A stretch of 64,000 nt of DNA. Source: Escherichia coli (GTDB taxonomy: Bacteria > Pseudomonadota > Gammaproteobacteria > Enterobacterales > Enterobacteriaceae). This document shows positions 30,880 through 38,074 of the stretch, piece by piece. Each line of letters starts with the position of its first letter. The stretch's first letter is position 1. Below the pieces are notes generated by a model that was not told where the DNA came from, ran no database searches, and was given only the letters and a program-made list of their open reading frames with translations. The position numbers and the translations under genes were made by a program. The stretch is from assembly GCF_003018115.1 (NCBI RefSeq), contig NZ_CP027457.1; one strand, written 5' to 3'.

Positions 30880-31095
30880 CAGAATCCTTCCGGATAATTA
30901 GCTCTCCCCTTTAAGGGACCATCCCTCTTATCCCTGCGCGCTACTTAAGTATTTTTGATTCTATTCCGGCACCGTCCAGAACTTCAAACGCGTTGAAAAT
31001 AAAAACAAAAACCCGCCGAAGCGGGTTAAGTGCGGGTGCGTTGAGGATGCCTGCCACATCAGAGGTGGCGAGGGATTTCTCCCCCGCCGGGTCTC

Positions 31096-31251
31096 TTACT
31101 CCTCAGGTTCGTAAGCTGTGAAGACAGCGACCTCCGTCTGGCCGGTTCGGATTCGTACCTCGCAGAGGTCTTTCCTCGTTACCAGTGCCGTCACTATGAC
31201 GGTTAAACAGATGACGATCAGGGCGATTAACATCGCCTTTTGCTGCTTCAT
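31096..31251 (-). CDS. hokD: Hok-family type I toxin HokD (RelF)
   Basis: Hand-translated 51 aa MKQQKAMLIALIVICLTVIVTALVTRKDLCEVRIRTGQTEVAVFTAYEPEE; antisense Sok RNA expected just upstream on plus strand. Confidence 0.85.
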   Translation of the reverse strand: MKQQKAMLIALIVICLTVIVTALVTRKDLCEVRIRTGQTEVAVFTAYEPEE

Positions 31252-31322
31252 AGCCTGCTTCTCCTGTCAACGCAAAGCAGAAGTGTCACCTTCGGTGCGA
31301 AACAGAGATGTCATGCTTTGGT

Positions 31323-31610
31323 TCAGAGAATGCGTTTGACCGCCTCGCTATATACTTCCGAGCGTTCTCTTTTCCCAACAGAAATCACGAAAACGACAAC
31401 TTTCTCGTCTATAACCTGGTATACAAGGCGATAGCCTGAAGACCGGAGCTTAATCTTGTAACAATCAGGCATACCACGGAGCTTGTTTGCTTCAATCCGG
31501 GGTGACTCAAGTACTTCAACCAGCTTCTTTTTCAACTGTTCACGTACCGTCGAGCCCAGCTTTCGCCATTCCTTTAGTGCCCGCTCGTCAAAATCCAGAA
31601 AATACGCCAT
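31323..31610 (-). CDS. relE: RelE mRNA interferase toxin
   Basis: 95 aa, RelE sequence. Confidence 0.9.
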   Translation of the reverse strand: MAYFLDFDERALKEWRKLGSTVREQLKKKLVEVLESPRIEANKLRGMPDCYKIKLRSSGYRLVYQVIDEKVVVFVISVGKRERSEVYSEAVKRIL

Positions 31611-31849
31611 CAGAGTTCATCCAGCGTCACACGTACTGGCTTAGGATTACGAAGCCGTTCTTTCACTATCTCCACAAGTTCAGCATCTTCATCACTCAGG
31701 AGTGTCTGTTTGAACGGCAAGCGTTCATTGTCAGCGATATACTCGAGCATGAGACGAAGCGCTTCAGAAGGAGTTACACCCATTTTTTCAAGCGCGGCGT
31801 AAGAACGCGCTTTAAGTTCATCGTCAATACGCAGGTTAATGCTACCCAT
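31610..31849 (-). CDS. relB: RelB antitoxin
   Basis: 79 aa, RelB sequence; 1-nt overlap with relE. Confidence 0.9.
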   Translation of the reverse strand: MGSINLRIDDELKARSYAALEKMGVTPSEALRLMLEYIADNERLPFKQTLLSDEDAELVEIVKERLRNPKPVRVTLDEL

Positions 31850-31873
31850 GTCTTACACCTCTTGTAATTACAA

Positions 31874-32179
31874 ATGTCATTACAAGTATCGCACTACAAC
31901 ATGCTTAGGGCAAGTCACGAAGGAAGTCAGAAAGTAGTCGTAAGAACGGTGATCACTGTCCGCTTTGTGCCAGGAGCAGCCATTGCTAAGTCCATCCTGT
32001 ATTGTGCAGGTCAGCTCGTTTTTAAAGAGTCCGGCCATCATCTTACTGGTACAGACACCATATACTTTGTGACGGTCAGGCTACATATGCACAACTCAAC
32101 TTATTCATCTATTTTTTGCTTTAGCATGTCAGTGTTGCTTTCTCGTCGGCGGGTGAGCGGTGACCTGACCTGTCGATAA
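31874..32179 (+). CDS. Hypothetical protein at the ydfV position
   Basis: 101 aa ORF, low-complexity, weak coding appearance. Confidence 0.35.
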   Translation: MSLQVSHYNMLRASHEGSQKVVVRTVITVRFVPGAAIAKSILYCAGQLVFKESGHHLTGTDTIYFVTVRLHMHNSTYSSIFCFSMSVLLSRRRVSGDLTCR

Positions 32180-32381
32180 AGGAACGTAACACGTTTTATG
32201 CAACACCCGCATGCGGCAGAAAATTATTGCCGAACGTTTACCCCTGTCAACAAGCTTTACTTTCTGAGGCGCGCCAGCCCGCGAGGAAAACAATCTGAAC
32301 ATCAAACAATTAATGACACAAGAAATACGATTAAAGATTTTTTTGTGCATGCCGATAGTGCTTTTTTAAAAGGAGAAATCT

Positions 32382-32714
32382 ATGTCTGTCACAATTCAGG
32401 GAAATACCTCAACCGTTATTTCAAACAACTCCGCCCCGGAAGGAACATCAGAAATAGCCAAAATCACAAGACAAATTCAGGTGCTGACTGAAAAGCTTGG
32501 GAAAATCTCATCGGAAGAGGGGATGACGACACAGCAGAAAAAAGAAATGGCTGCATTGGTACAGAAGCAAATTGAAAGCCTCTGGGCTCAACTGGAGCAG
32601 TTGTTAAGGCAGCAGGCAGAGAAAAAGAATGAAGACGCGACAGTTCAGCCTGATAAAAAAGAAGAGAAAAAAGACGATACAAATACCGCTGGCACCATTG
32701 ATATTTACGTCTAA
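32382..32714 (+). CDS. flxA: FlxA (FliA-regulated protein)
   Basis: 110 aa MSVTIQGNTSTVISNNSAPEGTSEIAKITRQIQVLTEKL. Confidence 0.85.
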   Translation: MSVTIQGNTSTVISNNSAPEGTSEIAKITRQIQVLTEKLGKISSEEGMTTQQKKEMAALVQKQIESLWAQLEQLLRQQAEKKNEDATVQPDKKEEKKDDTNTAGTIDIYV

Positions 32715-32724
32715 GTGACAGCCG

Positions 32725-32752
32725 TATTGTGGCCCTCATCGGGCCACTTTTC
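32725..32752 (+). terminator. Rho-independent terminator after flxA
   Basis: TGGCCC-TCATC-GGGCCA stem followed by T-rich run. Confidence 0.5.
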
Positions 32753-32899
32753 GCCATCAGCCTTTTCTTTAAAGACATATTATCTTTGTATCATTTCTGA
32801 TAGTTAACATTACAAGATATAAGTAATGGACGCACTCCCAATTAGTCTATTTAAATCGCCACGAGTTTAACTGACAACCCATGATCAATTATGAATTGC

Positions 32900-34600
32900 A
32901 ACTATTTCTGTAGTCACTTTTGTGGGGACAGTCCACAAAACTGCCAACTTCCGCTTCTTGCTCTTAGCGGACATTAGCATAGGCTATTTACCATAACGCC
33001 TCATTACGCGCACCGCCCAGACTGACTCAGCGCGTTTCTGGCATATCCCCGGTAAAACAAGTAACAAACCACCCGAAAATGAACACCAGAAACGCGACTT
33101 AAGAATCTACCCTATGAATGGATATGCACTCAACCGAATCGATCTTGGTTTCAATCTTTTTTATCGGGATCAGGCTTCTTTTTAGGTAACTTCGGGGGCT
33201 TAACTTGCTGATGACTTTGCGTTCGGCGCGTAAGCCAGGGATGGTCAGCTTTAGGTTTAACATAGTATTTTGAGCGTAAATCAATACGGGCATTATCCAC
33301 TCGTTCATGGACACTCTTTTCATCATCCAGTGGTATAGGCTCCGGGCCATCAACATACTTTTCCCAGCCCAGCGCTTTCCCGTCATACAGAACGTTAATT
33401 TCACCGTCAAAGTTCTCGCATACAGTAACAACCGAATGCCTAAGTCGATATCCCCGGCCCTCACTGCGTACCTGAAACGCACTGCTTTTGTACTGGAAAG
33501 TGAGATTTTTAGACAGAACGCGCTTCGCCTGTAGGCTGAAGATATAACCCAGTTCCTCTTCAGAATGGTGCACATCAAGATGAGCATTATCAGTAGTACG
33601 AGGCGACGTAGCGAACCGGTTGTTATAGGCTTCAATAAAGGTCGGCAACCATGCATTTGCTGTTTCAATATCACTGATATTCTGAAGCCGCATTTCTTTG
33701 ACCAGCCTGTCCTGTAGTGTCTGATTGGCGCGCTCTACCCGCCCTTTTGCCTGCGGGCTGTTGGCATGGATTGGCTCGATGCCCAGTGTCTTTATCGCAC
33801 GAGTGAACTGGGTCAGCTCACCTTCCCGCTCTGGGTTATTTACCCTGAATATACTGTGTCTATCAGAGTAGAGAGCGAGCGGTACGCCATGATCATTAAG
33901 GTAACCCCGGAGGGTTTCCATGTAAGCCCGGGTTGTTTCAGCAGGCACAAAACGCAACGCCATCAACGCACTGGTGGCATCATCAATGAAAACGATCAGT
34001 GTACATCTGGGGCCTCGATTTTCAAACCAGTCATGAGGTGAGCCATCAATCTGGATCAGTTCACCGTAAGATGGTCGTCGCATGCGGCGTTGATATATAC
34101 GGGCAATTTTACGACGGCGTTCACGCCATAACCCCTCTTCTATCATCCACTTTCTGAGAGTTTCAACGGATAAAGATAAACCGTGTATCTCGCGCAATTT
34201 TTCGCACGCAAACGTAGGTCCAAAATCAGCGTAACGGCCTTTGAGGAGTGAAATTACTGTTGCTCTGAATTCAGTAGAAAAGGAATTATTAGGACGCTTT
34301 CCACGTCGGTGGGAAACCAGACCAGAAGGCCCTTCATTTCTATACCGTTGCACCAGACGTTTAACCTGCCGAATAGAAATGCCAATGCGTGCCGCAGCTT
34401 GTTCCTGAATAATCTGAAGTCGGTGGAGTTCCTTATGACTCATCGTAACAGTCTCTTTGATCATGAAAAATCCCCCAGAGAATTGTCTGGGGACATTTTA
34501 GAATGGTTCAAAGGGGACATTACAGCTTGGTGTTAACAATAGCCTGCTTCTCCGTGCCTTTCGGCACGTAAGAGGCTAACCTACATGTGTCTAGCATGAA
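32900..34600 (-). mobile_element. Insertion sequence carrying a single DDE transposase (IS481/ISNCY-type); ends not resolved
   Basis: Single 437-aa transposase ORF; terminal inverted repeats could not be assigned by eye. Confidence 0.55.
33151..34464 (-). CDS. DDE transposase with N-terminal HTH and integrase-core (rve) catalytic domain
   Basis: 437 aa; D (IQIDGS), D (YSDRHS), E (GRVERANQ) triad spacing typical of rve. Confidence 0.85.
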   Translation of the reverse strand: MIKETVTMSHKELHRLQIIQEQAAARIGISIRQVKRLVQRYRNEGPSGLVSHRRGKRPNNSFSTEFRATVISLLKGRYADFGPTFACEKLREIHGLSLSVETLRKWMIEEGLWRERRRKIARIYQRRMRRPSYGELIQIDGSPHDWFENRGPRCTLIVFIDDATSALMALRFVPAETTRAYMETLRGYLNDHGVPLALYSDRHSIFRVNNPEREGELTQFTRAIKTLGIEPIHANSPQAKGRVERANQTLQDRLVKEMRLQNISDIETANAWLPTFIEAYNNRFATSPRTTDNAHLDVHHSEEELGYIFSLQAKRVLSKNLTFQYKSSAFQVRSEGRGYRLRHSVVTVCENFDGEINVLYDGKALGWEKYVDGPEPIPLDDEKSVHERVDNARIDLRSKYYVKPKADHPWLTRRTQSHQQVKPPKLPKKKPDPDKKD

Positions 34601-34798
34601 ATTGGCCTCAGATTAATGTTAAGCGTCTTGCAGGACGCGTAATGTTAACTGGGGCTTTTCTCTATCTGCCGTTGGTGTCCATGCCCGAGGCAGATAGCCT
34701 CAAGCACCCGCAGTCATTCTACTTAACTAAGATTTCCCCGCAAACCGTTTTTGTCCAGCACAGTAAATATCCAACTAAACCAATGGAGTTCGCTGTAT

Positions 34799-35741: not shown

Positions 35742-36146
35742 ATGAAATCATTAACCGCAGTGCGTAAAAAAAGCCCTAATTATCCCGTTGAGTTCAAAAT
35801 CAAAATGGTTGAACTCTCGCATCGACCAGAGATCTCCGTAGCGCAACTCGCTCGTGAGCATGGGATCAACGATAATTTGCTGTTCAAGTGGCGCCAGTAC
35901 TGGCGCGAAGGAAAACTACGTCCTCCTTCAACAACAGAAAACAACGTGCCTGAGCTGCTCCCGATAACACTTGATGCCGAAGATGTTGTCCCTACAACCT
36001 CCCCCCGGTCACAACCTGTAGCTGCTGCGACACCTGAATCACTCAATATCAGCTGTGAAGTGACGTTCCGGCACGGATCACTCCGTCTGAATGGTGCCAT
36101 CAGCGAAAATATCCTGAACCTGCTGATACGGGAGCTCAAACGTTGA
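35742..36146 (+). CDS. IS66-family accessory protein TnpA (orf1)
   Basis: 134 aa, HTH-like N-terminus, first ORF of element. Confidence 0.85.
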   Translation: MKSLTAVRKKSPNYPVEFKIKMVELSHRPEISVAQLAREHGINDNLLFKWRQYWREGKLRPPSTTENNVPELLPITLDAEDVVPTTSPRSQPVAAATPESLNISCEVTFRHGSLRLNGAISENILNLLIRELKR

Positions 36147-36490
36147 TCCCATTACCATCAGGGACAAAGATCTGGCTGGTCGCTGGCATCACCGATATGA
36201 GAAACGGCTTCAACGGCCTGGCGGCAAAGGTGCAGACGACGCTGAAAGACGATCCGATGTCAGGTCACGTTTTTATCTTCCGTGGGCGTAATGGCAGTCA
36301 GGTAAAGCTCCTCTGGTCTACCGGCGATGGACTGTGTCTGCTGACCAAACGGCTGGAGCGCGGCCGCTTCGCCTGGCCGTCAGCCCGGGATGGCAAAGTG
36401 TTCCTCACACCGGCACAGCTGGCGATGCTGCTGGAAGGTATCGACTGGCGGCAGCCTAAAAGACTGCTTACGTCCCTGACTATGTTGTAA
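36143..36490 (+). CDS. IS66-family TnpB (orf2)
   Basis: 115 aa, 4-nt overlap with tnpA. Confidence 0.85.
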   Translation: MIPLPSGTKIWLVAGITDMRNGFNGLAAKVQTTLKDDPMSGHVFIFRGRNGSQVKLLWSTGDGLCLLTKRLERGRFAWPSARDGKVFLTPAQLAMLLEGIDWRQPKRLLTSLTML

Positions 36491-36538
36491 GCCTCTTTAT
36501 CCTGGTCGACGCTGAATGAGCCTGGTAATATACCCGGT

Positions 36539-38074
36539 ATGAGCAGCTCACTTCCTGACGATATCAATGCACTGAAACGTCTCCTTGCCGAACAGGAGGC
36601 GCTGAACCGTGCCCTGCAGGAAAAGCTGAACGAGCGTGAACGCGAAATAGACCATCTGCAGGCACAGCTGGATAAGCTGCGCCGGATGAACTTCGGCAGC
36701 CGCTCGGAAAAAGTCTCCCGTCGTATCGCACAGATGGAAGCTGACCTGAAGGCACTTCAGAAAGAAAGTGATACCCTTACCGGTCGGGTTGACGACCCGG
36801 CCGTGCAGCGCCCGCTGCGTCAAACCCGCACCCGCAAACCGTTCCCCGAATCACTCCCCCGCGATGAAAAACGGCTGCTGCCGGCAGCGTCATGCTGCCC
36901 GGAATGTGGAGGCTCGCTGAGCTATCTGGGTGAGGATGCCGCCGAACAGCTGGAGCTGATGCGCAGCGCCTTCCGGGTTATCCGGACTGTACGTGAAAAG
37001 CATGCCTGTACTCAGTGCGATGCCATCGTGCAGGCCCCCGCGCCTTCACGGCCCATCGAGCGGGGTATCGCAGGACCGGGGCTGCTGGCCCGCGTGCTGA
37101 TCTCAAAGTATGCAGAGCACACCCCGCTGTACCGCCAGTCTGAAATGTACGGCCGCCAGGGCGTGGAGCTGAGTCGTTCACTGCTGTCGGGCTGGGTGGA
37201 TGCATGCTGCCGGCTACTGTCACCGCTGGAAGAAGCGCTTCAGGACTATGTGCTGACTGACGGTAAGCTCCATGCTGATGACACGCCTGTCCCGGTGCTG
37301 TTGCCAGGCAATAAGAAAACGAAGACCGGGCGGTTATGGACCTACGTTCGTGACGACCGTAACGCCGGGTCAACGCTGGCGCCGGCGGTGTGGTTCGCTT
37401 ACAGCCCGGACAGAAAAGGCATCCATCCGCAGACCCATCTTGCGGGGTTCAGTGGTGTACTGCAGGCGGATGCATACGCCGGGTTCAACGAGCTGTACCG
37501 GGATGGCCGGATAACGGAAGCCGCCTGTTGGGCTCACGCCCGCCGTAAAATCCACGATGTGCACGTTCGCACCCCGTCAGCCCTGACGGAGGAAGCGCTG
37601 AAACGGATCGGCGAACTGTACGCCATCGAGGCAGAGATAAGGGGAATGACGGCGGAGCAGCGCCTTGCCGAACGTCAGTTGAAAACGAAACCGCTGCTGA
37701 AATCCCTGGAAAGCTGGCTGCGTGAAAAGATGAAAACCCTGTCGCGACACTCAGAACTGGCGAAAGCGTTCGCATACGCCCTGAACCAGTGGCCGGCGCT
37801 GACGTACTATGCAGATGATGGCTGGGCTGAGGCGGACAATAACATCGCTGAAAATGCGTTGCGGATGGTCAGTCTGGGCCGCAAAAACTACCTGTTCTTC
37901 GGTTCGGATCATGGAGGAGAGCGGGGAGCGCTGCTGTACAGCCTGATCGGGACGTGCAAACTGAACGGAGTGGAGCCAGAAAGCTACCTCCGCTATGTCC
38001 TTGACGTCATAGCCGACTGGCCGATAAACCGGGTCGGCGAACTGCTCCCCCTGGCGCGTAGCACTGCCGACTGA
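36539..38074 (+). CDS. IS66-family transposase TnpC (orf3)
   Basis: 511 aa, N-terminal leucine zipper, Cys-x2-C zinc motif, DDE core. Confidence 0.9.

What the first reader, a model, noticed from the sequence alone, without database searches (positions are those of the whole stretch)
32900..34600. Second insertion sequence with unresolved ends and same-orientation GGGGACA motifs on both flanks
The 437-aa HTH plus rve transposase is intact, but I could not find convincing terminal inverted repeats. Instead TGTGGGGACAGTCC (left) and TCTGGGGACATTTT / AAGGGGACATTAC (right) occur in direct orientation, which is atypical for a simple IS.
Basis: seen in the sequence. Interest (0 to 1): 0.3.

Follow-up and report, generated by a model that had tools for sequence, protein, structure and literature searches.

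The report
Cargo transposon that targets hok genes
The "insertion sequence without ends" is the transposase half of a 3.3-kb transposon with normal inverted repeats and a 15-bp target duplication. It carries the relBE toxin-antitoxin genes and a host-recombinase (Xer) site, and it repeatedly inserts at the start codon of hok-type toxin genes.

Summary
The sequence observations are real, but the element was delimited wrongly. The transposase (33151-34464, minus strand) is ISEsa1-type and belongs to the IS1202 family. Its left end (IRL) lies at 34538. The matching right end (IRR) is not near 32900 but at 31265, beyond flxA, ydfV and relBE.

The mobile unit is 31265-34538 (3,274 bp). It has TGT...ACA termini, inverted repeats matching 19/26, and a second inner repeat at each end. 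A perfect 15-bp duplication (ATAGCCTGCTTCTCC) flanks it.

It splits a hok locus. The leader (Rfam sok, 104 bits) lies right of IRL, and the hokD coding sequence lies left of IRR.

The same unit sits in two other hok-family loci on Salmonella and Enterobacter plasmids, each with its own 15-bp duplication. Larger versions (up to 12.8 kb, with Ni/Cr resistance genes) share both end modules.

The two right-hand GGGGACA motifs are the repeated inner parts of IRL. The left-hand motif lies in cargo and matches IRL no better than chance.

Next to the transposase gene is a cer-like XerC/XerD site, and cargo varies beyond it. E. coli K-12 carries a truncated copy, so its relBE-hokD operon arose from this insertion.

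The transposon nature, the hok targeting and the Xer site were not described in any literature I could search.

The parts
31096..31251 (-). hokD coding sequence. This is the target gene, now separated from its own leader and lying downstream of relE.
   Evidence: 51-aa ORF. Pfam HOK_GEF, 82.9 bits. Annotated hokD in identical RefSeq DNA.
31250..31264 (.). Target-site duplication, copy next to IRR (ATAGCCTGCTTCTCC). On the hok strand it reads GGAGAAGCAGGCTAT, i.e. the Shine-Dalgarno sequence through the AT of the hok ATG.
   Evidence: The undivided site is seen in L007 and in E. coli chromosomes.
31265..31290 (+). IRR, the true right end: TGTCAACGCAAAGCAGAAGTGTCACC. Its tip reads TTGACA outward.
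   Evidence: 19/26 identity to IRL, the best inverted match in the 64-kb window. The same end abuts different duplications in L077, L078 and L079.
31308..31315 (+). Second, inner copy of the inner IR motif at the IRR end (ATGTCATG).
   Evidence: Alignment of the two ends. The family feature is described in PMC10132070.
31323..31610 (-). relE toxin gene (cargo, part of the conserved IRR-proximal module).
   Evidence: ParE_toxin, 51 bits. The module 31265-~31975 is conserved at 98-99% in L079, L087 and L114.
31610..31849 (-). relB antitoxin gene (cargo, part of the conserved IRR-proximal module).
   Evidence: Pfam RelB, 112 bits. Annotation.
31874..32179 (+). ydfV (variable cargo).
   Evidence: This region is replaced by other DNA in L079, L070, L087 and L114.
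32382..32714 (+). flxA (variable cargo).
   Evidence: Pfam FlxA, 53.8 bits. Annotation.
32946..32985 (-). 40-bp stretch after the XerD arm. It marks the boundary between the variable cargo and the conserved transposase module, and it resembles the 3' end of a hok leader. Its function is unknown.
   Evidence: The boundary is seen against L003, L005, L006, L009 and L079. Similarity to a plasmid hok leader scores 33 against 13.9 +/- 2.9 for shuffles.
32986..33014 (-). cer-like Xer recombination core. On the minus strand it reads GGTGCGCGTAA (XerC arm) - TGAGGCG - TTATGGTAAAT (XerD arm).
   Evidence: The XerD arm is identical to that of ColE1 cer, and the XerC arm matches dif at 10/11 (reference sequences in PMC2410131).
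33015..33137 (-). Accessory region of the cer-like site. It includes an ArgR-box-like TGCATATCCATTCA (33115-33128) and an 11-bp inverted repeat (33031-33041 / 33086-33096).
   Evidence: Homologous to the non-coding region beside the same core in ColE1-type small plasmids L075 and L076.
33151..34464 (-). Transposase gene, ISEsa1-type of the IS1202 family (437 aa, with a 9-aa in-frame deletion in the N-terminal DNA-binding region).
   Evidence: Copies more than 99% identical are named 'IS1202-like element ISEsa1 family transposase'.
34472..34493 (-). Stem-loop followed by a T-run, directly upstream of the transposase start codon (terminator-like). It overlaps the inner IRL repeat.
34489..34496 (-). 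Inner copy of the IRL motif (ATGTCCCC on the minus strand).
34513..34538 (-). IRL, the true left end: TGTTAACACCAAGCTGTAATGTCCCC on the minus strand.
   Evidence: This end abuts 33 distinct flanking contexts among 112 copies.
34539..34553 (.). Target-site duplication, copy next to IRL (ATAGCCTGCTTCTCC).
34539..34709 (-). hok leader with the Sok antisense region. This is the target, cut off from the hokD coding sequence by the insertion.
   Evidence: Rfam RF01794 (sok), 104.1 bits against a gathering score of 59, E = 1.2e-23, full model. The model's last positions (AUG) fall at the junction.

Best explanation
Window 31265-34538 is one unit transposon of the IS1202 family. The ISEsa1-type DDE (TnsB-like) transposase would bind a 26-bp terminal inverted repeat plus a second inner copy of its inner motif at each end. 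It would then join the TGT/ACA termini to a target cut with a 15-16-bp stagger.

The preferred target is the translation-initiation region of hok-family type I toxin genes. The duplication always starts at the Shine-Dalgarno GGAG, just 3' of the conserved leader hairpin, and ends at the AT or ATG of the start codon. The orientation is fixed: IRL and the transposase gene lie next to the leader, and IRR and relBE lie next to the toxin coding sequence. The insertion therefore cuts hok off from its Sok-controlled leader and places it, still with its Shine-Dalgarno sequence and ATG, behind relBE. This is the relB-relE-hokD arrangement known from E. coli K-12.

The element has two conserved modules, IRR-relE-relB and cer-like Xer site-tnp-IRL, with variable cargo between them (here ydfV and flxA).

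Shown: the ends, the duplications, the empty site, the recurrent target and the modular structure. Inferred: the chemistry, from the family. The host XerCD site serves for cargo capture or exchange, and possibly for resolving cointegrates. The window copy is probably a fixed, poorly mobile or immobile resident of a Qin-like prophage, because of its 9-aa transposase deletion.
For: Ends and duplication: sequence; IRR is the best inverted match to IRL, 19/26; exact 15-bp repeat.

Empty site: the IS-free hok locus L007 overlaps both window flanks by 16 nt. The reconstructed empty site aligns in one piece at 98.5-99% in E. coli chromosomes.

Independent insertions of the same unit, each with its own duplication:
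- Salmonella IncI plasmid, TSD ATCATAGCCCCTCCA in a pnd-type hok locus.
- Enterobacter IncF plasmid, TSD ATGGCCTTCTTCTCC.
- The 12,843-bp version in CP032294.1, 15/15.
- L087 and L114, with 16-bp duplications, and L025, a non-hok site with 13/15.

Target: Rfam sok ends at IRL in the window, L004, L083, L126, L117, L087 and L018. Of 33 distinct IRL junctions, 18 have GGAG at the start of the duplication.

Family: NCBIfam, 456 bits. The family features (TGT/ACA termini, inner repeats, Q at E+7) are taken from PMC10132070.

Modules.

Xer site. L087 has a 1.25-kb cassette flanked by two such sites. L064 diverges exactly after the XerD arm. L114 has an IRR module 98.8% identical to the window but a tnp module only 89.7% identical.

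K-12 truncation.
Against: No experiment supports any of this; everything is comparative. ISfinder, as quoted in PMC10132070, defines ISEsa1 as 1,609 bp with 15/22 inverted repeats and no duplication. I could not compare with that entry.

Thirteen of 28 non-redundant junctions lack the GGAG and are not obvious hok sites, so the targeting is a preference, not an absolute rule. Some copies have unmatched flanks (L068, L094, L034), which requires later recombination between copies.

How the target is recognised is unknown. I found no similarity between the target and either end, and no Xer-like site in the hok leader. The Xer core has a 7-nt spacer, and activity was not tested. A scan of a natural IRR-15 bp-IRL junction found no promoter.
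Confidence: 0.88

Rival explanations
1. A simple IS of about 1.6 kb (ISEsa1 as in ISfinder: 1,609 bp, weak 15/22 inverted repeats, no target duplication) spans about 32946-34538. On this view relBE, ydfV and flxA are merely neighbouring prophage genes.
For: The block 32946-34538 is conserved at more than 99% next to different DNA in L003/L079, L005, L006 and L009. The literature gives that size and reports no duplication.
Against: The 32946 end has no TGT terminus and no inverted repeat with IRL. The DNA beyond it always leads, in every complete copy, to the same relBE-IRR module, with a duplication matching the IRL flank. L005 and L006 are IS26-truncated fragments. Boundaries near 32946 vary: L070 diverges at about 32960 and L064 at 32985.
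Confidence: 0.05
2. The element has ends in direct orientation marked by GGGGACA motifs. On this view it moves by a non-canonical mechanism such as rolling-circle or one-ended transposition.
For: Three same-strand GGGGACA motifs lie within 1.6 kb. A further related motif, GCGGACATTAGC at 32966-32977, has the same orientation.
Against: The transposase is a DDE/rve enzyme, not an HUH or DEDD enzyme. Proper inverted ends and duplications exist. The context of the left motif matches IRL only at chance level, 15/26, and it is absent from versions with other cargo (L079, L087, L114).
Confidence: 0.02
3. relBE entered the hok locus by some other route, for example as a plasmid-derived cassette as proposed in the literature. 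An IS then landed next to it later, so the matching ends and repeats are coincidental.
For: PMC6379469, citing Ramisetty and Santhosh 2016, states that relBE integrated into hokD and came from plasmids, without mentioning a transposon.
Against: The whole 3.27-kb unit, from IRR through relBE to tnp and IRL, recurs in three different hok-family loci. Each has its own perfect 15-bp duplication, at the same two termini. Two separate events would not produce one duplication spanning both.
Confidence: 0.04

Closest known systems
IS1202 family, ISAjo2/ISAba32 subgroup (Harmer, Pong and Hall 2023, PMC10132070; Siguier et al. 2022 preprint)
   Same: A TnsB-like DDE transposase with N-terminal HTH domains. 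TGT...ACA termini and imperfect inverted repeats of about 26 bp. A second inner transposase-binding repeat at each end. Orientation-specific insertion with IRL next to a recognised site. A link to XerC/XerD sites.
   Different: Those IS are about 1.5 kb, make 3-6-bp duplications and insert 5 bp from the XerC arm of dif-like sites. This element makes 15-16-bp duplications, targets hok-family start regions, and carries a cer-like site inside itself rather than landing beside one.
ISTde1 subgroup of the IS1202 family (15-17-bp duplications; Siguier et al. preprint)
   Same: The length of the duplication (15-16 bp).
   Different: By the identities in PMC10132070 Table 7, the ISEsa1 transposase is nearer to ISAjo2 (41%) than the ISTde1 transposase is (35%). 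No target or cargo has been reported for that subgroup.
ISEsa1 as recorded in ISfinder (quoted in PMC10132070 Table 7)
   Same: The transposase. Copies more than 99% identical are named ISEsa1 family by NCBI's annotation pipeline.
   Different: ISfinder lists 1,609 bp, 15/22 inverted repeats and no duplication, and no target has been found. Here the ends are 3.27-12.8 kb apart, the inverted repeats match 19/26, the duplication is 15-16 bp, and a target is defined.
Transporter IS (tISKpn21, tISKpn65, tISRel10) and ISEcp1-type capture of adjacent DNA
   Same: A single transposase whose ends enclose passenger genes.
   Different: Here the passenger region has a conserved toxin-antitoxin module at one end and a Xer site at the other, with exchangeable content in between.
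Acinetobacter pdif modules / xrs cassettes
   Same: Gene cassettes bounded by XerC/XerD sites. L087 shows a cassette between two such sites inside the transposon.
   Different: Those modules are plasmid-borne and are not part of a transposon. Here a single cer-like site with ColE1-type accessory sequence sits inside a transposon of Enterobacteriaceae.
Tn7 (TnsB with attTn7 homing) and Tn3-family res sites
   Same: A TnsB-like enzyme, multiple binding sites at each end and site-specific insertion. An internal recombination site could resolve cointegrates, as res does.
   Different: There is no TnsA, TnsC or TnsD and no resolvase gene. Any resolution would use host XerCD, which is inferred only.
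Chromosomal hok loci inactivated by insertion sequences, and the relBEF operon of K-12 (Pedersen and Gerdes 1999; Gotfredsen and Gerdes 1998; from my own knowledge)
   Same: hokD lacks its own leader and is co-transcribed with relBE.
   Different: The cause is identified here as a single targeted transposon insertion. K-12 retains only its IRR-to-ydfW part.

Membership tests
IS1202 family | Transposase homologous to the family's DDE enzyme | tested here: met
   NCBIfam NF033594 (ISNCY_2), 456.4 bits against a cutoff of 250. Copies more than 99% identical are annotated 'IS1202-like element ISEsa1 family transposase'.
IS1202 family | Outer termini 5'-TGT ... ACA-3' with imperfect terminal inverted repeats of about 24-26 bp | tested here: met
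   TGTCAACGC... at 31265 and ...GTTAACA at 34538, matching 19/26. The feature is taken from PMC10132070.
IS1202 family | A second internal copy of the inner part of the inverted repeat near each end | tested here: met
   At IRL, ATGTCCCC lies at positions 19-26 and 43-50. At IRR, GTGTCACC lies at 19-26 and ATGTCATG at 44-51.
IS1202 family | Q rather than K/R at the seventh residue after the catalytic E | tested here: met
   The translation reads GRVERANQTLQ. The feature is taken from PMC10132070.
IS1202 family, long-duplication group (ISTde1-like, 15-17 bp) | Target-site duplication of 15-17 bp | tested here: met
   A 15-bp duplication in the window, L077/L004, L078/L002, L079 and L070. A 16-bp duplication in L086, L087 and L114.
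IS1202 family, ISAba32/ISAjo2 subgroup | 3-6-bp duplication, with IRL 3-6 bp from the XerC arm of a dif-like site | tested here: not met
   The duplication is 15-16 bp. The DNA next to IRL is a hok leader and not a Xer site.
ISEsa1 as defined in ISfinder | 1,609 bp, 15/22 inverted repeats, no duplication | tested here: not met
   No end lying 1,609 bp (1,582 bp after the 27-bp deletion) from IRL shows an inverted repeat. I could not access the ISfinder sequence itself.
cer-like Xer recombination site | 11-bp XerC and XerD arms separated by 6-8 nt | tested here: met
   GGTGCGCGTAA-TGAGGCG-TTATGGTAAAT. The XerD arm equals that of ColE1 cer, and the XerC arm matches dif at 10/11.
cer-like Xer recombination site | Accessory sequence on the XerC side with an ArgR box | tested here: inconclusive
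   The region 32985-33096 is 82% identical to the region beside the same core in a ColRNAI plasmid. The ArgR-box likeness was judged by eye against L075 and L076 only.
cer-like Xer recombination site | Recombination by XerCD | not testable with these tools
   Indirect evidence only: a cassette between two sites in L087, divergence exactly at the XerD arm in L064, and variable central regions.
hok/sok locus (the target) | hok mRNA leader / Sok region, and a Hok peptide | tested here: met
   RF01794, 104.1 bits against 59. PF01848, 82.9 bits for 31096-31251.
Composite transposon | Two IS copies bracketing the cargo | tested here: not met
   There is only one transposase gene and one pair of ends between 31265 and 34538.
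Tn7-like transposon | TnsA, TnsC and a target selector besides TnsB | tested here: not met
   The other ORFs of the 3.27-kb unit are relE, relB, ydfV and flxA.
Elements without inverted repeats (IS91, IS200/IS605, IS110) | An HUH or DEDD transposase | tested here: not met
   The protein has an rve/DDE core with HTH domains.

The most novel reading that the evidence does not exclude
A single-protein, TnsB-like transposon lineage homes to the start region of type I toxin genes (hok/pnd; a relative sits at an ldr/rdl locus). It would do so by recognising the conserved leader hairpin and Shine-Dalgarno sequence. It replaces the toxin's antisense-RNA control with its own relBE addiction module. It also uses a built-in host-Xer (cer-like) site to swap cargo and perhaps to resolve cointegrates. 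On this reading ISEsa1 in ISfinder is mis-delimited, and the textbook relBE(F) locus of E. coli K-12 is the stump of this transposon. None of this is described in the literature I could search.
Probability: 0.5. Interest if true: 0.75.

Novelty: new variant of a known kind. Interest (0 to 1): 0.62.

Why it matters
It supplies ends, a duplication and a target for the one IS1202-family subgroup for which the 2023 family survey (PMC10132070) found no duplication and no target. It adds a second kind of sequence-specific target to a family known for homing to Xer sites.

It shows how a paradigm toxin-antitoxin locus (relBE, with hokD/relF) was assembled, and how relBE spreads among plasmids of Klebsiella, Enterobacter, Citrobacter, Salmonella and E. 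coli. The relBE-IRR module is found on 672 plasmids at 80% coverage or more, and the transposase module on 849. The larger versions carry nickel and chromate resistance genes.

An insertion that disables one plasmid-addiction system while installing another, and that also carries a multimer-resolution-type site, is relevant to plasmid stability and plasmid competition. It also matters for annotation: ydfW, the 'ISNCY pseudogene' and the DUF5431 ORFs are all pieces of one event.

Tried and rejected
1. I searched for inverted repeats between 32880-33160 and 34440-34760. Nothing longer than 9 bp was found.

2. I first took 34597 as the IS end, because BLAST extended to it in L002 and L003. I rejected this. 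The stretch 34539-34597 is hok leader, homologous at lower identity (94%) because those copies also sit in hok loci.

3. I suspected that 32946-33110 was a decayed hok coding sequence, because the translation ends in ...YGK*. I rejected this. The region is a cer-like Xer site homologous to sites in ColE1-type plasmids.

4. I tried to reproduce ISfinder's 1,609-bp length from either end. No plausible inverted repeat appears at the implied positions.

5. Both match IRL at 15/26, which is chance level. The 40 bp do resemble a hok leader end, but the spacing does not fit an insertion junction. This remains unexplained.

6. I looked by eye for XerC/XerD-like arms in the hok leader, and for similarity between the target hairpin and IRR or IRL. 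None was convincing.

7. I scanned a natural IRR-15 bp-IRL junction (L105) for a junction promoter and found none by the consensus rule. The IRR tip does read TTGACA.

8. I looked for multi-copy E. coli genomes to define the ends from recent transpositions. The element is single-copy, with a median of 1 and a maximum of 3.

9. The IRR of the relatives L009, L011, L012 and L013 was not found within the DNA fetched.

10. Ramisetty and Santhosh 2016 could not be read.
Full report
**1. The observation**

The region holds a 437-aa ORF on the minus strand (33151-34464). It has HTH domains and an rve-type core and scores 456 bits against NCBIfam ISNCY_2, whose cutoff is 250. The three GGGGACA-containing strings are at the stated places, all on the + strand. 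Aligning the two supposed end regions in inverted orientation gives nothing longer than 9 bp.

The ORF is open but not full-length. Compared with the 446-aa form, it lacks residues 22-30 because of a 27-bp in-frame deletion near 34403-34413. RefSeq annotates identical DNA as a partial ISNCY transposase pseudogene plus 'ydfW'.

**2. Identity of the transposase**

Copies more than 99% identical on plasmids are annotated 'IS1202-like element ISEsa1 family transposase'. The family paper lists ISEsa1 as 1,609 bp, with 15/22 inverted repeats and a 439-aa transposase. [quoted passage not shown] That paper also gives the family hallmarks:
- TGT...ACA termini
- imperfect inverted repeats of 24-26 bp
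- a second inner copy of the inner repeat at each end
- Q at the seventh residue after the catalytic E

The last hallmark is visible here as GRVERANQTLQ.

**3. Finding the left end (IRL)**

I compared the window with independent copies: L003, L004 and L009, 41 viral contigs and 58 metagenome contigs. All place one boundary at 34538. On the transposase strand the element starts TGTTAACACCAAGCTGTAATGTCCCC. The motif ATGTCCCC recurs 24 bp further in. They are the inner part of IRL and its second copy, not flank motifs. The inner copy overlaps a terminator-like stem-loop just upstream of the transposase start codon.

**4. What lies outside IRL**

Window 34538-34709 (minus strand) is a complete match to Rfam RF01794, the hok leader/Sok region (104 bits, E = 1.2e-23). 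The model's final AUG falls on the junction. IS-free hok loci match 34539-34728. At first this looked like an IS whose other flank had lost the hok coding sequence.

**5. The other boundary, first impression**

The conserved block stops at 32946 in several contexts. That end has no TGT terminus, no inverted repeat and no duplication. Between the transposase stop codon and 32946 lies a cer-like Xer site:
- On the minus strand the core reads GGTGCGCGTAA-TGAGGCG-TTATGGTAAAT.
- The XerD arm is identical to that of ColE1 cer, and the XerC arm matches dif at 10/11 (reference sequences in PMC2410131).
- The XerC-side region is homologous to the same site in ColE1-type small plasmids (L075, L076). It includes an ArgR-box-like TGCATATCCATTCA.

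**6. The true right end (IRR)**

The IS-free locus L007 aligns to the window twice: residues 2257-2516 to 31006-31265, and 2501-2691 to 34539-34728. The 16-nt overlap signals a duplication. The sequence shows ...CTTCAT AGCCTGCTTCTCC|TGTCAACGCAAAGCAGAAGTGTCACC... at 31250-31290, and ...GTTAACA|ATAGCCTGCTTCTCC at 34538-34553.

Three conclusions follow:
- The duplication is ATAGCCTGCTTCTCC (15 bp), present at 31250-31264 and at 34539-34553.
- The second end starts at 31265 with TGT. It matches IRL at 19/26, the best inverted match to IRL anywhere in the 64-kb window; chance hits reach 17.
- This end also has an inner second motif (ATGTCATG, positions 44-51).

The element is therefore 31265-34538, 3,274 bp. 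It contains relE, relB, ydfV, flxA, the Xer site and the transposase gene. A reconstructed empty site aligns in one piece at 98.5-99% to E. coli chromosomes.

**7. Independent insertions**

| Copy | Host and target | Element size | Duplication |
|---|---|---|---|
| Window | Qin-like prophage hok | 3,274 bp | 15 bp, ATAGCCTGCTTCTCC |
| L004 + L077 | Salmonella IncI plasmid NZ_CP030003.1, pnd-type Hok gene | the 3.27-kb unit (ends fetched as two loci) | 15 bp, ATCATAGCCCCTCCA |
| L002 + L078 | Enterobacter IncF plasmid NZ_AP024282.1, hok | the 3.27-kb unit (ends fetched as two loci) | 15 bp, ATGGCCTTCTTCTCC |
| L079 | CP032294.1, the same IncF hok site | 12,843 bp | 15/15 |
| L070 | same site as the window | 4,655 bp | 15 bp |
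| L087 | hok | 4,237 bp | 16 bp |
| L114 | hok | 4,600 bp | 16 bp |
| L086 | same hok site as the window | 3,304 bp | 16 bp |
| L025 | non-hok site | 2,575 bp | 13/15 |

The 12.8-kb version reads IRR-relE-relB-...chrBA...ncrABCY-Xer site-tnp-IRL. A few copies have unmatched flanks (L068, L094, L034). This is what recombination between copies at different sites would produce.

**8. Modular structure**

Against these versions the window shares 31265-~31975 (IRR plus relBE, 98-99% identical) and ~32950-34538 (Xer site, tnp and IRL). The DNA between them differs.

- In L114 the IRR module is 98.8% identical to the window, but the tnp module is only 89.7% identical.
- In L087 a 1.25-kb cassette lies between two Xer cores in direct orientation.
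- L064 diverges exactly after the XerD arm.
- The central region of the core varies between copies.

I infer that host XerCD acts at this site to exchange or capture cargo. The transposase is TnsB-like and has no TnsA partner, so a cer-type site with accessory sequences could also resolve cointegrates. That step is speculation.

**9. Target specificity**

Among 112 copies I found 33 distinct IRL junction contexts. Eighteen have the Shine-Dalgarno GGAG at the position where the duplication starts. Most of these show the leader hairpin GCC-N4-GGCA just before it.

Rfam's sok model ends at the IRL junction in the window, L004, L083, L126, L117, L087 and L018. These leaders differ strongly from one another, while the elements are 99% identical. 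The association therefore reflects repeated insertion, not co-inheritance.

Other points:
- The orientation is always the same.
- A 72-79%-identity relative (L011) sits next to an rdlD/ldr locus, another type I toxin system.
- Sites lacking the GGAG keep a weak C(-25), G(-20), C(-18), A(-16) pattern.
- How the site is recognised is unknown.

**10. Consequence for the host locus**

The duplication gives the hok coding sequence its own GGAG...ATG copy directly after IRR and relE. hokD thus becomes the third gene behind relBE and loses its Sok-regulated leader. E. coli K-12 MG1655 has hokD-relE-relB-ydfV-flxA-ydfW and then unrelated genes. That is the IRR part of the element up to window position 33335; the rest of tnp, IRL and the leader are deleted. 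A review states that relBE integrated into hokD and came from plasmids (PMC6379469, citing a 2016 paper I could not open). I found no mention of a transposon, its ends or hok targeting in seven literature searches.

**11. Distribution**

In E. coli the transposase module is single-copy, found in 1,165 of 5,426 genomes with a maximum of 3 copies. The window copy is therefore an old resident of a Qin-like prophage. On plasmids the transposase module occurs in 849 records and the relBE-IRR module in 672 at 80% coverage or more. These are mostly Klebsiella, Enterobacter, Escherichia, Citrobacter and Salmonella, and the module is often annotated next to a Hok family toxin.

**12. The left GGGGACA motif and what remains unexplained**

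The left motif (32924) lies in the window-specific cargo, 17 bp beyond the 32946 module boundary. It is absent from versions with other cargo. Its 26-mer matches IRL only at chance level. GGGGACA as a word is not enriched in the window: 4 occurrences against 3.9 expected.

One item stays open. The 40 bp between the XerD arm and 32946 resemble the 3' end of a hok leader more than shuffled sequence does (score 33 against 13.9 +/- 2.9).

**13. Verdict**

The finding is real but mis-delimited. It is not an atypical IS with direct-repeat ends. It is the transposase module of an IS1202-family cargo transposon with standard ends, a 15-bp duplication, a defined preferred target and an internal Xer site. 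It is a member of a known family, and a variant of it that appears undescribed.

Noticed in passing
window 35742-38074: Three intact ORFs (134, 115 and 511 aa) make an IS66-family element about 1.2 kb right of the transposon. The matching DNA in strain W5-6 is annotated ISEc22 family, with frameshifts. This is a separate element from the one studied here.
   Followed up: no
L084, L088, L101, L127, L082, L094 (metagenome contigs): A different element has ends TGTATGGGTCCACCACATATTGC... and ...GCAATATCTGTGTGAACTTACACA. In L088 it carries a 362-aa rve-type transposase that looks IS481-like to me. It abuts the same GGAG-plus-15-bp hok site, sometimes in tandem with the ISEsa1-type element. A second family may share this hotspot.
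   Followed up: partly
L105 11687-11759; L116: A natural IRR - 15 bp (GGAGAAAAAGGCTAT) - IRL junction joins two related but different elements. It looks like a tandem insertion into the regenerated target. The consensus scan finds no promoter across it.
   Followed up: partly
L013 4130-4552; L011 3926-5131: Relatives of the transposon at 72-78% nucleotide identity carry other passengers between tnp and the Xer module: a 140-aa FosA-like glyoxalase-family protein (L013) and a 401-aa protein that looks like a pentapeptide-repeat/glycosyltransferase (L011). Each also has a duplicated remnant of the transposase C-terminus. The protein assignments are by eye.
   Followed up: no
L011 2312-2375: The L011 relative's IRL lies about 50 bp from an Rfam rdlD antitoxin hit (52.4 bits), directly after a hairpin-SD-ATG arrangement. 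Targeting may extend to ldr/rdl type I toxin loci.
   Followed up: partly
window 32946-32985: The 40 bp after the XerD arm resemble the last 40 nt of a plasmid hok leader (score 33 against 13.9 +/- 2.9 for shuffles). They end where the cargo becomes variable. Neither the origin nor the role is explained.
   Followed up: partly
L008 (JAIJJM010000167.1): A contig 99.95% identical to this E. coli prophage region is binned in a 'Collinsella sp.' metagenome-assembled genome. This is probably a binning error.
   Followed up: no
window 31006-31087: A sub-threshold Rfam isrK hit (25 bits, E = 0.02) overlaps the terminator hairpin downstream of hokD. It is probably just the terminator.
   Followed up: no
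L005, L006 (plasmids NZ_OP038298.1, NZ_CP084056.1): IS26 truncates the transposase module at window-equivalent 33109/33110. This leaves solitary Xer-site fragments next to mph(A) and other resistance regions.
   Followed up: partly
window 34403-34413: Both the deleted (3,274 bp) and undeleted (3,301-3,302 bp) forms of the element occur at the same prophage site, in many viral and metagenome contigs. The 27-bp deletion is therefore a polymorphism within E. coli.
   Followed up: partly
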